Below, one piece after another: positions 1-29,527 of a stretch of DNA of 64,000 nt. The notes beneath the pieces are model-generated. The model was not told the origin of the DNA and did not search any database. It saw nothing but the letters and a program-made list of their open reading frames with translations. Source of the stretch: Carcharhinus longimanus. Taxonomy: Eukaryota. Where the stretch lies: positions 92,556,898 to 92,620,897 of the forward strand of contig JASCQW010000132.1 of NCBI GenBank assembly GCA_030264375.1, given 5' to 3'. Position 1 is the stretch's first letter. Every line of letters begins with the position of its first letter. A program made the position numbers and the translations under genes.

Positions 1-830
1 ATCAGAAATGGTCAAGGTTCAATCAACTTCTAATATGCAATGCTGGCGAAATAGAAGAGGAAAGATAATAAATGGGTTATGTTACTTTATTAGTTTGTTG
101 TCACTGACCTTCTACACTTAACCTACAGAGCTACAGCACGTTGCATTAACCTACTAAACTTTAGACTACAAACATCAAACCAGAAATGCAATCTAGCGGC
201 TGTAAGTTCCGACCATGCGTCACATAATAGTACTGGAAGTAACAATCAGCAAAGCCCCAGCGTGGATCACAATTATAGTGATCACTGTGGAAATGTAGCA
301 GCAACCGGCAAACTAATCACAGGCAGACCCGTGAAAGTCAAGATTACTCATGTTTTCTCGCCTGTAGCCGCCAGGGAATCTTAGTGTGTGATTATAATTG
401 CCTAATATTGGGCTGAAACTTTCCTTTTTTTACCAACTTCATCTGTGAATAATTTAAAATAATAAACGGATTGCTACTATGACTCAGTAACGCCGCGTTA
501 AGTCTTGCTGAAAGTTCTGGTGATAGCCTGTTACACATTGGAGCCCCGCTTTTATTTTATTTGAAGGACGTGATTCTAATAAAGTAGAACCGAGTAAATA
601 AAGATGCATTTAGACGCTTTTGCAGTTTACCGATTACATATGGTGACCTTATTGCAGTTGTAGTGACGCAGCCCTCCATGGAGGAGGGGCTTGTGTCCAA
701 CTGTGCCATTCGATTGGCTCATCCCGCCTGTCGTGCTGCGGAGGTATCTCTAATCATATTCAGCGTGTTTGCACAAGAAATGTCAGCCTGAACTGGATAT
801 CTTCTGCTTTCGCCAAATTACCCCACAACA

Positions 831-1204
831 ATGTCATGCTCAGACAGCCCGTCTGCAAACTCCTTTTTAGTAGATTCTCTGATCAGCGTGGGCCGTGGCG
901 GGGAAGGAACCTATTACCCCAACAGCAGCGTGTACCTGCCGCCTGCCTCTGAGCTCCCTTACGGCACCCAGAACTGTGGACTTTTCCCATCTCTGAGCAA
1001 ACGCAGCGAGAACAACTCTCAGAGTATGGTCCTGACTTCTCATCCTTACATGAGCGGGATGGAAGTCTGGTCAGAACCCCCAAGGTCCTGTCGCATGGAG
1101 CAACCTGCAACCCAGCAAGTAGCAGCCTGTTCCTTCCCCCAGAATATCAAAGAAGAGAATGCATACTGTTTATATGATTCTGAGAAATTTCCCAAAAGAG
1201 CAAC
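831..1204 (+). CDS. hoxa10: HoxA10 exon 1 (partial; remainder and splice donor probably inside N-gap 1205-1630)
   Basis: ATG at 831 gives MSCSDSPSANSFLVDSLIS...PPRSCRMEQ...CSFPQNIKEENAYCLYD, typical group-10/HoxA10 N-terminal motifs. The frame runs into 426 N. Confidence 0.93.
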
Positions 1205-3152: not shown

Positions 3153-3427
3153 GGGAGGTGAAAGCTGAAAACGGGGCGAACTGGCTGACTGCAAAGAGTG
3201 GCAGAAAAAAACGATGCCCTTACACCAAACATCAGACCCTGGAACTGGAGAAAGAGTTTCTCTTCAACATGTACCTGACTCGAGAGCGTCGCCTAGAGAT
3301 TAGCCGCAGTGTCCACCTGACTGACAGACAGGTCAAAATCTGGTTTCAAAATCGCAGGATGAAACTCAAGAAAATGAATCGTGAGAACAGGATTCGGGAG
3401 CTTACAGCTAACTTCAGCTTCTCATGA
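3153..3427 (+). CDS. hoxa10: HoxA10 exon 2 (homeodomain)
   Basis: Long CT-rich tract, then TTAG| at 3152. Encodes [83 protein letters not shown]; stop TGA 3425-3427. Confidence 0.97.
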
Positions 3428-5227: not shown

Positions 5228-5311
5228 AACTGATGTGTGATTTAGGTAGTTTCATGTTGTTGGGGCTCAAGTCTATCTCTACAACACGAAACTGCCTGAA
5301 TTACTGCAGTT
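5228..5311 (+). ncRNA. mir196: miR-196 precursor (HoxA locus, positional orthologue of mir-196b)
   Basis: Mature TAGGTAGTTTCATGTTGTTGGG at 5243-5264. Complementary 3' arm ACAACACGAAACTGCCTGAATTAC at 5281-5304, closed by AACTG/CAGTT. Canonical position between Hox10 and Hox9. Confidence 0.98.
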
Positions 5312-10689: not shown

Positions 10690-10938
10690 ATATCCCTTTG
10701 CATAAAAAAACATACGGAGTTGCTATATAAAATTATCTCTATAAAAGATTGACCCTGTTACAAGCTGCGGATTGATTTATATTTTATTGTTGTTTTTGAA
10801 TCACGTGAGTAACTGATCCAATGGCGTGGAAGTGCGTCTGCACCATATTAGCAGAGTGTACTTGTCGCGGCGGTAAGTTGTTACACTGAAATCTGCTCTT
10901 TCATATTTTCAGAGGCGCTTGCTGTGTCATTGGCGAGA
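10690..10938 (+). promoter_or_regulatory. HoxA9 promoter / conserved leader
   Basis: CACGTG 10802-10807 and CCAAT 10818-10822. Also CCTTTGCATAAAAA, TGATTTAT and AGTTGTTACA..GAAATCTGC blocks resembling the mammalian HOXA9 5' region as I recall it. Confidence 0.8.
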
Positions 10939-27200: not shown

Positions 27201-29527
27201 CTATTAGCTCCTTAGTAGCCATTTGCCCCAGTCTGTGTGTTCCTGCTCTAATTATATTGCCTTGTTTTCTCCAGTTTTCCTGAGACACGATGCAGCAGCA
27301 TTTGTGAGTGGTTATTGGTGATTCCACCTAATTGGAAAATAATGACTGTGCTTTAAACGTTGCCCTTTTGTTCATCTTTTAATATCACCTTTTGCTCATC
27401 TGTTTTTCTGTTATTTGCACCATACCAACTTGTGAGAAGATTCTCCATTATACGTGTGGAGCATTTGTGGGGGCTTCATCTTCAAACCTTCACTTTTGTG
27501 TCCTGGACGTGATGAATAAACGAAAACCAAAGATAAAACGTAAAGAAAGCATAAACAGCAAAGATGAGAAAACTTCGAATTTATTAAAATGCAAGGTACA
27601 ATTGGGGGAAAAAAAAGCACACATTGCAATGCATGGTTAGAGGCTATAGGGCTGAAACTGAGGAAAGCGGCAAGCGTCGGCCTTAATAAGAGGGTTGGAG
27701 ACTGGCGTGTTCGTGCTCGTTTTCCTCCATAATTGTGCTGCATTTATACTCACAATTCGAATAGAAAAGGGCTTTTGATTTCGACCAGCTTTCAGTTTGT
27801 TTTTAGTCAGTCTATAATTAGGAAAGAGAGACAGGTATAAGATTTCAGGACTGAAAATTAACCCACTTGAGGCATTTTAACAACTTGCAATCAATGAGGT
27901 AGCATCCATCCCAAATAAACATTTCTAACGTTCAAAAATACAAAATTGTCCGACGACTAAACAACCGCATTCACCACTTCACCCTCATTCCTTATCATTG
28001 CCTCTAATTGGCACGTTTCGACTTCGGTCATGGGTGCTGTAGCAATGTTTATTCAAGTGCTTAAATATTTCTCCTGCAAAAATAAACACATATTCCTCAT
28101 TAATATATATGTGTGTTGTTTGCAGTACCCTTGGTATTTCAGTATGTGATGTAACCATTGTTGACAGGAAAGGAAAACTAACGAGATAATGAGATCTTTA
28201 GCAAGGAGCCTTTGGCTTCCGTCCTTCCACTACGATCTGATGCCGCGCTTAGGGCGCAGTAAATGCTCTGTTATTCCAAAACACAAATGTCTCCATTGAG
28301 ATGTTCAAAAATGTCTAATTATTCCAAAAGAAACATTCCACTATTTTATGGTCGATAAAACCTTAACACTGTGCAATTATGGAAAATCGAAGTTGGGATT
28401 TGGGGAATATTAGAGAATTTCAATCATATACAATTAAAACAACATTCTGATGGAAGGGAGCCACATACAGGCTTATCCAATATAAAGTCGAGCCTCTGCA
28501 GGTCGTTTGGCCGTTTAAACAAACCCGGTGAACGTTGGCTAAATACTTTTTTCTGGAAGTATTATGGCGTTTGTGTACTAAATGCACATGTGTATGCATG
28601 CATGCTTTAATGAAGAGTGCTAGTGCAATAACAATTACTCCTACACACAATTACTGTGAGATCCTTTCAAAGCTGAGATAACCGCGTTGCGCTCCACAGT
28701 TGGGATTTTCTTTATAAGAATATCAAAATTAAATCTATAAATCATTTCCCTGAATATATACTCTTGCTACCAGGTTATTTCTGTTTATTTTGTCAGTATA
28801 AATGTACTGAGTACAACACTTAGGAACCCTTGATATTGTGGGTCTCTGTAGTTGCAGACGCTATTGTTCTTTACCGAGTTGAAAATGGATAGAGATTCAT
28901 ATTATGGAGGGACTGATGTCTGATTATTCTCATCTAGTCTTCACAAGCTAGCAAATAAAATGTTGTGCTTGTAAGATGACATATACAAATGGAAAAAGAA
29001 TGAATAAAAATGCTCAATCCTTGCAACGGTTATTTACCTATCTAAACTACTCTGTGAGTCTACATAGAACGCACAGCTACAGAACTAGAGATTTGTTGAT
29101 TTATTTCTACGTACCCTCTATTTTCTATCATCTATCTTCTAATCACTGTTGATCCAGTTATTGTTGGATGCGTAATGCACAGTCACATTTCCCTATGTGA
29201 GGTTATATGGAATAAGTATGTATAACTATAGCCTGTAACCTAATAGTGTTCTTATTGGGTCACTAATATTCCATTAAAACCACCTCTGTTATAGTTCAGA
29301 ACTGATTTGGTTGTTTGTAACTTTGCTAGCTCAGTCGCCGGATCTCCAGGGAGTTTTTTGAACCAAAGTCGGTTTCTATTGGCCAGAGACTGATCAGCTG
29401 GTTATATTTGCTGCTGTCGCTTTGGCGCTCGGCCATCCTGAAACAAACCACCTCGATGACTACTAATAGCTAAACCACATTGTGTACTAATACATAACAA
29501 ATCATATTACTACAGAGTGTGGAGCAA

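What the first reader, a model, noticed from the sequence alone, without database searches (positions are those of the whole stretch)
780..833. HoxA10 N-terminal extension broken by a TGA, leaving a 3-codon uORF with a conserved 'dead' frame
Seen: the ATG at 780 is exactly 17 codons upstream of, and in frame with, ATG 831. It reads M-S-A-stop(TGA)-T-G-Y-L-L-L-S-P-N-Y-P-T-T-M. Known: mammalian HOXA10 begins MSARKGYLLPSPNYPTTMSC. A single AGA/TGA difference therefore switches between an extended isoform and a micro-uORF, yet the codons after the stop still match. Inference: either the constraint acts at RNA/DNA level, or the stop is read through, or the extension arose from a uORF.
Basis: partly seen in the sequence, partly recalled or inferred. 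Interest (0 to 1): 0.7.

Follow-up and report, generated by a model that had tools for sequence, protein, structure and literature searches.

The report
Shark HoxA10 keeps ancestral micro-uORF
Just ahead of the shark HoxA10 gene lies a start codon followed after three codons by a real stop; this tiny frame is likely the ancestral state of jawed vertebrates, and bony vertebrates, humans included, likely gained the first 17 residues of their annotated HOXA10 protein by losing that stop in a stretch conserved for its DNA or RNA letters rather than its peptide.

Summary
ATG 780 reads M-S-A-TGA, 51 nt before the HoxA10 start at 831; contigs of 6 runs from 6 studies carry the same base. The same upstream ATG stands before shark HoxB10 (M-S-V-TGA) and HoxD10 (out of frame), and before hagfish and lamprey Hox10 (M-S-A-W; Trp = TGG). 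Only bony-vertebrate HoxA10 has AGA. Parsimony favours TGA in the jawed-vertebrate ancestor, by one step. The 'dead' frame is conserved at nucleotide level: between teleost HoxA10a and A10b, where the frame is open, pS is 0.12 against 0.78 in coding sequence and pN/pS is about 1.3 (few changes). The conserved block starts 32 nt before the ATG and spans the start site inferred from the human annotation (14-nt leader). No readthrough motif or conserved RNA structure was found. Likely action: a leaky, cap-proximal start that mildly damps HoxA10 translation in sharks and yields a longer isoform in bony vertebrates. Translation and the shark start site are untested.

The parts
713..717 (+). Reverse CCAAT box (ATTGG), 67 nt before the upstream ATG; likely promoter element
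   Evidence: Same motif at -70, -66, -66 and -55 in teleost A10a, teleost A10b, shark D10 and shark B10; function inferred
748..779 (+). Non-coding block conserved with teleost HoxA10; holds the inferred transcription start (about 766-767) and Inr-like matches at 754 and 770
   Evidence: 29 of 32 identical to teleost A10a, 26 of 32 to A10b, background about 0.5; human transcript annotated 14 nt before its start codon, mapped here by alignment
765..767 (+). GTG where teleost A10a, A10b and shark D10 have a further upstream ATG; one base also missing here
780..791 (+). Three-codon uORF, M-S-A-TGA; context -3 G, +4 T
   Evidence: base 789 the same in 6 runs
792..830 (+). 39-nt spacer between the stop and the main start (the 'dead' frame), constrained at nucleotide level
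   Evidence: 31 of 39 identical to teleost A10a; identity to shark D10 8, 9, 9 of 12 at codon positions 1, 2, 3
831..1204 (+). HoxA10 coding exon 1, readable part (runs into a block of N); main ATG context -3 A, +4 T
3153..3427 (+). HoxA10 exon 2 with the homeobox (5' border approximate)

Best explanation
The ATG at 780 opens a three-codon frame ending in a real TGA, and it is the shark form of an upstream start shared by vertebrate Hox10 genes that likely sits a dozen or so bases from the mRNA cap, would be partly skipped by scanning ribosomes, and would mildly damp HoxA10 translation. Shown: the stop; the same ATG before shark HoxB10 and HoxD10, teleost HoxA10a/b and (as protein) hagfish and lamprey Hox10; even conservation over codon positions; a conserved block that starts upstream of the ATG. 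Inferred: TGA was present in HoxA10 of the jawed-vertebrate ancestor and became AGA on the bony-vertebrate stem, turning uORF plus leader into the annotated MSARKGYLLPSPNYxTT extension. Inferred: ribosomes that start at 780 make M-S-A and stop 39 nt before the main ATG, where only some restart; most protein comes from leaky scanning to 831. Inferred: the letters are held by promoter-proximal or leader function (CCAAT box, start site, downstream element), not by the peptide.
For: Codon 4 is TGA in shark A10 and B10, TAC in shark D10, AGA in 3 of 3 teleost A10 leaders; a mouse primer also shows AG there. Hagfish Hox10IV begins MSAWTG and a lamprey Hox10 MSAWKA, both in frame; Trp can only be TGG. 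Parsimony cost for the ancestral A10 codon: TGA 2, AGA 3, TGG 3 with cyclostomes alone; 4, 5, 6 with B10 and D10 added. None of 15 listed chondrichthyan HoxA10 proteins, chimaera included, has the extension, while the same pipeline did annotate it on electric-ray HoxD10 where it is in frame. Leader versus coding exon: pS 0.12 vs 0.78 and four-fold sites 7 of 7 vs 8 of 20 (p = 0.007) for teleost A10a/A10b; 48 of 48 leader bases identical between two A10b copies whose coding pS is 0.29; pS 0.20 vs 0.77 for shark/teleost A10a. Frame of the ATG relative to HoxD10 varies: in frame in 5 of 100 hits, visibly another frame in 7. Human transcript annotated with a 14-nt leader; leaders under 30-40 nt promote leaky scanning (PMC13219423). 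Hoxc10 and Hoxd10 carry conserved, ribosome-covered uORFs in mouse (PMC8892498).
Against: The parsimony margin is one step. The B10 site lies 40 nt from an assembly gap with poorly agreeing ends. Chondrichthyan DNA was seen only for close relatives; skates, rays and chimaera rest on annotation, and 10 of 25 cluster members were not listed. pN/pS rests on 1.5 synonymous and 5.5 non-synonymous differences. Against the first 16 coding codons alone, the excess third-position identity is not significant (p 0.07-0.50), and shark D10 vs teleost A10 shows none (pN/pS about 0.5). The extension keeps 17 codons in 89 of 91 cases, which may mean selection on the frame. The 14-nt human start is an annotation; the one HeLa CAGE peak listed for HOXA10 lay 652 nt downstream. 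The cloned mouse Hoxa10 leader had no promoter activity alone (PMC9456764). No shark RNA or ribosome data were seen.
Confidence: 0.6

Rival explanations
1. The ATG at 780 is rarely or never used as a start: the transcript begins too close to it or beyond it, and ATGTCAG is kept as a DNA motif of the core promoter (it holds TGACA on the other strand, the recalled TALE-class core). Neither the uORF nor the bony extension would matter as translation products.
For: Conservation is even over codon positions and begins upstream of the ATG; the frame is labile in HoxD10 and shifted in one teleost A10b (P0392); a BBCABW Inr match at 770 would leave a 7-nt leader; hyperconserved Hox 'leaders' are often promoters (PMC9456764).
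Against: M is kept in every state seen from hagfish to mammals; mouse Hoxd10 and Hoxc10 uORFs lie inside CAGE-defined leaders and were scored as translated, though I could not see which ATG was meant.
Confidence: 0.2
2. The extension is ancestral to jawed vertebrates and was broken by AGA-to-TGA in cartilaginous fishes.
For: Hagfish and one lamprey have an open, in-frame extension, so an open frame is old; 91 of 119 bony hits carry it; it costs only one more step.
Against: The first base of codon 4 is T in cyclostomes, shark A10, B10 and D10, and A only in bony A10; this route needs T to A to T, or two independent stops in A10 and B10.
Confidence: 0.16
3. The TGA is read through or recoded, so sharks still make the long isoform.
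For: The downstream frame is open and similar to the bony peptide.
Against: The stop is followed by ACTG, not the recalled CUAG readthrough motif; no conserved structure; Rfam finds only mir-196 in the window; the same conservation pattern holds where the frame is open, so no peptide is needed to explain it.
Confidence: 0.03
4. Base 789 is an assembly error or private variant.
For: None beyond the single-base nature of the difference.
Against: Same base in contigs of 6 runs from 6 studies; no chondrichthyan HoxA10 with the extension among 15 listed.
Confidence: 0.01

Closest known systems
Conserved inhibitory Hox uORFs with suboptimal start context (PMC8892498; Hoxa1, a9, a11, and Hoxc10, Hoxd10 among 13)
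   Same: AUG-started uORF in a short Hox leader, no G at +4, deep conservation; Hoxd10 has the homologous ATG.
   Different: Hoxa10 does not occur in that paper's main text (0 hits) and has no such stop in mammals; here the uORF is 3 codons, and the same ATG is a uORF, an overlapping ORF or an in-frame extension depending on gene and lineage.
Alternative N-terminal isoforms from very short 5' UTRs (PMC13219423)
   Same: Two in-frame AUGs, the first about 14 nt from the annotated cap in human HOXA10.
   Different: In sharks the first AUG yields no isoform; HOXA10 appears only as a table row in the supplements I could search.
Three-codon reinitiation-permissive uORFs, yeast GCN4 uORF1 and mammalian ATF4 uORF1 (recalled)
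   Same: Minimal uORF upstream of a main ORF.
   Different: No second, inhibitory uORF follows, and the 39-nt spacer is short for efficient reinitiation (recalled from Kozak's work).
Hyperconserved Hox transcript leaders explained by promoters (PMC9456764)
   Same: Nucleotide-level conservation near a CCAAT box about 50-60 nt before the start site.
   Different: The cloned Hoxa10 leader itself showed no promoter activity there; the constraining factor here is unidentified.

Membership tests
Conserved inhibitory Hox uORFs (PMC8892498) | AUG-started uORF inside the CAGE-defined leader | not testable with these tools
   No shark CAGE or RNA; human annotation puts the start 14 nt upstream
Conserved inhibitory Hox uORFs (PMC8892498) | Suboptimal context: no purine at -3 and/or no G at +4 | tested here: met
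   -3 G, +4 T in shark A10, B10, D10 and teleost A10
Conserved inhibitory Hox uORFs (PMC8892498) | Present as a uORF in at least 90% of placental mammals | tested here: not met
   Mammalian HoxA10 hits carry an open in-frame extension instead; so it works like this class but is not filed in it
Conserved inhibitory Hox uORFs (PMC8892498) | Ribosome footprints on the uORF and repression of a reporter | not testable with these tools
   No such data available here
Conserved-peptide uORFs | Peptide conserved with synonymous-biased change | tested here: not met
   pN/pS 0.67-1.29 among A10 pairs and shark A10/D10, against 0.33-0.39 in exon 1; about 0.5 in both for D10/teleost; small counts
Programmed stop-codon readthrough | UGA followed by CUAG or a 3' stem-loop | tested here: not met
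   TGA ACTG; folding z -0.47 to +0.80, consensus energy -0.49 kcal/mol
Selenocysteine recoding | SECIS element in the 3' UTR | tested here: not met
   Rfam at gathering thresholds: only mir-196 in 64 kb; a weak SECIS could be missed
GCN4/ATF4-type reinitiation switch | Short permissive uORF followed by an inhibitory uORF | tested here: not met
   Only one ATG in the 150 nt before 831

The most novel reading that the evidence does not exclude
One upstream start codon, older than the split of jawless and jawed vertebrates, has switched between micro-uORF, overlapping ORF and in-frame extension across Hox10 genes by single-base changes. The first 17 residues of human HOXA10 are a captured uORF and leader, kept for their nucleotides, and the stop loss raised or rewired HoxA10 output on the bony-vertebrate stem.
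Probability: 0.4. Interest if true: 0.68.

Novelty: new variant of a known kind. Interest (0 to 1): 0.5.

Why it matters
It gives a dated, natural example of a protein N-terminus born from a uORF, in a well-studied developmental regulator, with three states of the same start codon available for side-by-side reporter tests. It warns that a conserved annotated N-terminus (human HOXA10 residues 1-17) can look protein-constrained while the constraint is on the nucleotides, which bears on the true start of HOXA10 and on reading variants there. It extends the published Hox uORF set back to cartilaginous fishes and cyclostomes.

Tried and rejected
No RNA holder was listed for this stretch; the two 'RNA?' runs that covered it gave 3-kb contigs running past both ends of the stretch, like DNA, so they say nothing on the start site. 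X21 matched only 1056-1099 and X22 nothing. RNA folding and consensus folding gave no structure. The sigma-70 promoter scan was irrelevant to a vertebrate and empty. 2 of 5 metagenome matches (L014, L015) were chance and were dropped before all counts; the viral collection gave none. A 15-mer pattern built from the three shark sites has 409 matches in the genome; it is circular and used only as a rough background. No second copy of the HoxB10 leader was found to settle its gap. No HoxC10 appeared among 6 homeobox hits at E up to 1e-25. A TISU or DPE reading of the motif was considered by eye and dropped for poor matches (consensus recalled). Paper searches for the motif and peptide found nothing relevant; one recalled paper was not held; HOXA10 was absent from the searched supplements of PMC9943669 and PMC7397870.

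Full report
Observation. The window opens on a shark HoxA cluster. ATG 780 is 51 nt before and in frame with the HoxA10 start at 831 and reads M-S-A-TGA, then TGYLLLSPNYPTT. The nearest protein is zebra shark HoxA10 at 96%. mir-196 and HoxA9 to HoxA4 follow. Of the other 119 hits, 91 begin with an MSARKG-type extension (89 with 17 residues, 2 with 18), 27 begin at the second Met and 1 is partial. Base 789 is the same in contigs of 6 of 8 runs laid, from 6 studies; the other 2 runs did not cover it. These are contigs of close relatives, not raw reads.

Spread in cartilaginous fishes. The zebra-shark cluster has 25 members; of 15 listed (sharks, skates, rays and Callorhinchus), 14 begin MSCSDS, 1 begins further downstream, and none has the extension. 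This is annotation, not DNA. A control: the electric ray Narcine has its HoxD10 annotated with a 16-residue MSASKG extension while its HoxA10 has none, so the pipeline does pick the ATG when it is open and in frame. Against this, 27 bony hits also begin at the second Met, some with relatives that carry the extension, so annotation is an imperfect proxy.

Paralogues in the same genome. HoxD10 (L002) has the homologous ATG at -50, out of frame, opening a 30-codon overlapping ORF that begins MSAYKGHHLPSSNYSPK. HoxB10 (L009; named from relatives) has ATG TCA GTT TGA TAA upstream of its start: a 13 of 15 match to the A10 site, the best in that 10-kb locus, with no other such match in 148,000 background positions. 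It lies 40 nt from a 100-N gap whose two ends look like poor overlapping copies; both ends show the TGA TAA letters, only one shows the ATG. All 16 chondrichthyan B10 proteins begin at the main Met. A reverse CCAAT box stands 55-70 nt before the upstream ATG in all five leaders examined. PMC10972751 groups clusters A/B against C/D (passages), so B10 is the closest paralogue.

Outgroups and direction. A metagenome scan gave 5 loci; 3 are teleost HoxA10 leaders with AGA at codon 4 and 51-nt spacing, 2 were chance and dropped. A mouse cloning primer shows AG at the same place (PMC9456764 supplement row). Hagfish Hox10IV begins MSAWTG with a 16-residue in-frame extension; Lethenteron Hox10 begins MSAWKA with 31 residues; two Lampetra proteins begin at the main Met. 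Trp is always TGG. So the first base of codon 4 is T in cyclostomes and in shark A10, B10 and D10, and A only in bony A10. Unit-cost parsimony for the ancestral A10 codon gives TGA 2, AGA 3, TGG 3 with cyclostomes alone, and 4, 5, 6 with B10 and D10. TGA wins each time, by one step. At the vertebrate root TGG versus TGA is open.

Frame lability. Among 100 HoxD10 hits, 85 begin at the main Met, 5 have the upstream ATG in frame (16-20 residues), 7 show it in another frame inside a longer annotated extension, and 3 are truncated. One teleost A10b has it shifted out of frame (P0392). The ATG is kept; its frame is not.

Why the dead frame looks alive. Shark A10 against shark D10: identity 12, 12, 11 of 16 at codon positions 1-3 in the leader, against 79, 94, 47 of 122 in exon 1. 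Teleost A10a against A10b, where the frame is open: leader pS 0.12, pN 0.15; exon 1 pS 0.78, pN 0.30; four-fold sites 7 of 7 against 8 of 20, p = 0.007. Two A10b copies are identical at 48 of 48 leader bases while their coding pS is 0.29. Shark against teleost A10a: pS 0.20, pN 0.17. Identity to teleost A10a is 29 of 32 over 748-779, 11 of 12 over the uORF, 31 of 39 over 792-830, and about 0.5 further upstream, so the block starts before the ATG. Against: the counts are small and the pairs are not independent; shark D10 against teleost A10 shows pN/pS near 0.5 in leader and exon alike; and against only the first 16 coding codons the third-position excess is not significant (p 0.07-0.50), so the constraint seems to taper into the coding start. 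No shared RNA structure was found.

Position in the transcript. The human transcript ENST00000283921.5 is tabled with a 14-nt 5' UTR (PMC13219423 supplement row). I take its start codon to be the MSARKG one, as mammalian hits begin there. Mapped through the alignment, this is about 766-767 here, just upstream of 780. It is an annotation; the only HeLa CAGE peak listed for the gene lay 652 nt downstream. No shark RNA was available. That paper reports that leaders under 30-40 nt promote leaky scanning (passages).

Mechanism. Shown: a fixed stop, a pan-vertebrate upstream ATG, nucleotide-level conservation. Inferred: the ATG is near the cap and in middling context (-3 G, +4 T), so many ribosomes pass it and start at 831 (-3 A). 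In sharks those that start at 780 make a tripeptide and stop 39 nt short, and only some restart, a mild damping. In bony vertebrates the same starts yield a longer isoform. The factor that holds the letters is unknown; promoter-proximal function fits the CCAAT box and the start site inside the block, though the cloned mouse Hoxa10 leader had no promoter activity alone (PMC9456764 passages). The main rival is that the ATG is barely used and is only a DNA motif.

Comparison and novelty. PMC8892498 (parts 1-3 of 9, one methods section, term passages and a term search of 4 spreadsheets; SI Appendix not readable) lists 13 Hox genes with conserved uORFs, Hoxc10 and Hoxd10 among them as conserved from mammals to tetrapods; Hoxa10 does not occur in its main text. 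PMC2746220 on chondrichthyan Hoxa clusters has no uORF mention in term passages (no supplements held). PMC13060157 passages added nothing. Ten library searches showed no report of the HoxA10 stop or of the extension's origin; subscription journals are largely outside this library. The scan's own notes held nothing on this element. GCN4/ATF4 uORF1, the CUAG readthrough motif, the TALE core and the spacing rule for reinitiation are recalled, not looked up.

Verdict. A real feature, a new variant of a known kind (Hox leader uORFs), with an evolutionary twist: the stop is probably old and the human extension young. Interest 0.5.

Noticed in passing
window 10829-10938 (HoxA9 leader): No ATG in the last 110 nt before the shark HoxA9 start, although PMC8892498 reports a 7-codon Hoxa9 uORF in an 83-85 nt leader conserved from mammals to fish.
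   Followed up: no
window 29456-29473: In-frame five-codon uORF (MTTNS, stop) 72 nt before the HoxA6 start; PMC8892498 lists a Hoxa6 uORF conserved only from mammals to tetrapods. Homology not tested.
   Followed up: no
window 765-767; L012 and L013 at -67; L002 at -64 from the main ATG: A second upstream ATG in teleost A10a (44-codon overlapping ORF), A10b (2 codons) and shark D10 (3 codons) is GTG in shark A10; it lies at about the inferred start site.
   Followed up: partly
window 678-791: A further in-frame ATG at 678 opens 37 codons ending at the same TGA; it lies upstream of the CCAAT box, so it matters only for longer transcripts.
   Followed up: no
window 5234-5307: mir-196 precursor between HoxA10 and HoxA9, as expected.
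   Followed up: yes
L009:6601-6641 (minus strand): HoxB10 leader with M-S-V-TGA-TAA next to a 100-N gap whose flanks look like overlapping low-quality copies; true spacing to the main ATG unknown.
   Followed up: partly
protein P0261 (Mustelus model): A RefSeq isoform joins HoxB10 exon 1 to a Hox9-type homeodomain exon, suggesting a B10-B9 splice model.
   Followed up: no
G000, whole genome: Only three group-10 homeobox exons (A, B, D) among the 6 hits at E up to 1e-25; no HoxC10 seen, in line with recalled HoxC loss in elasmobranchs.
   Followed up: no
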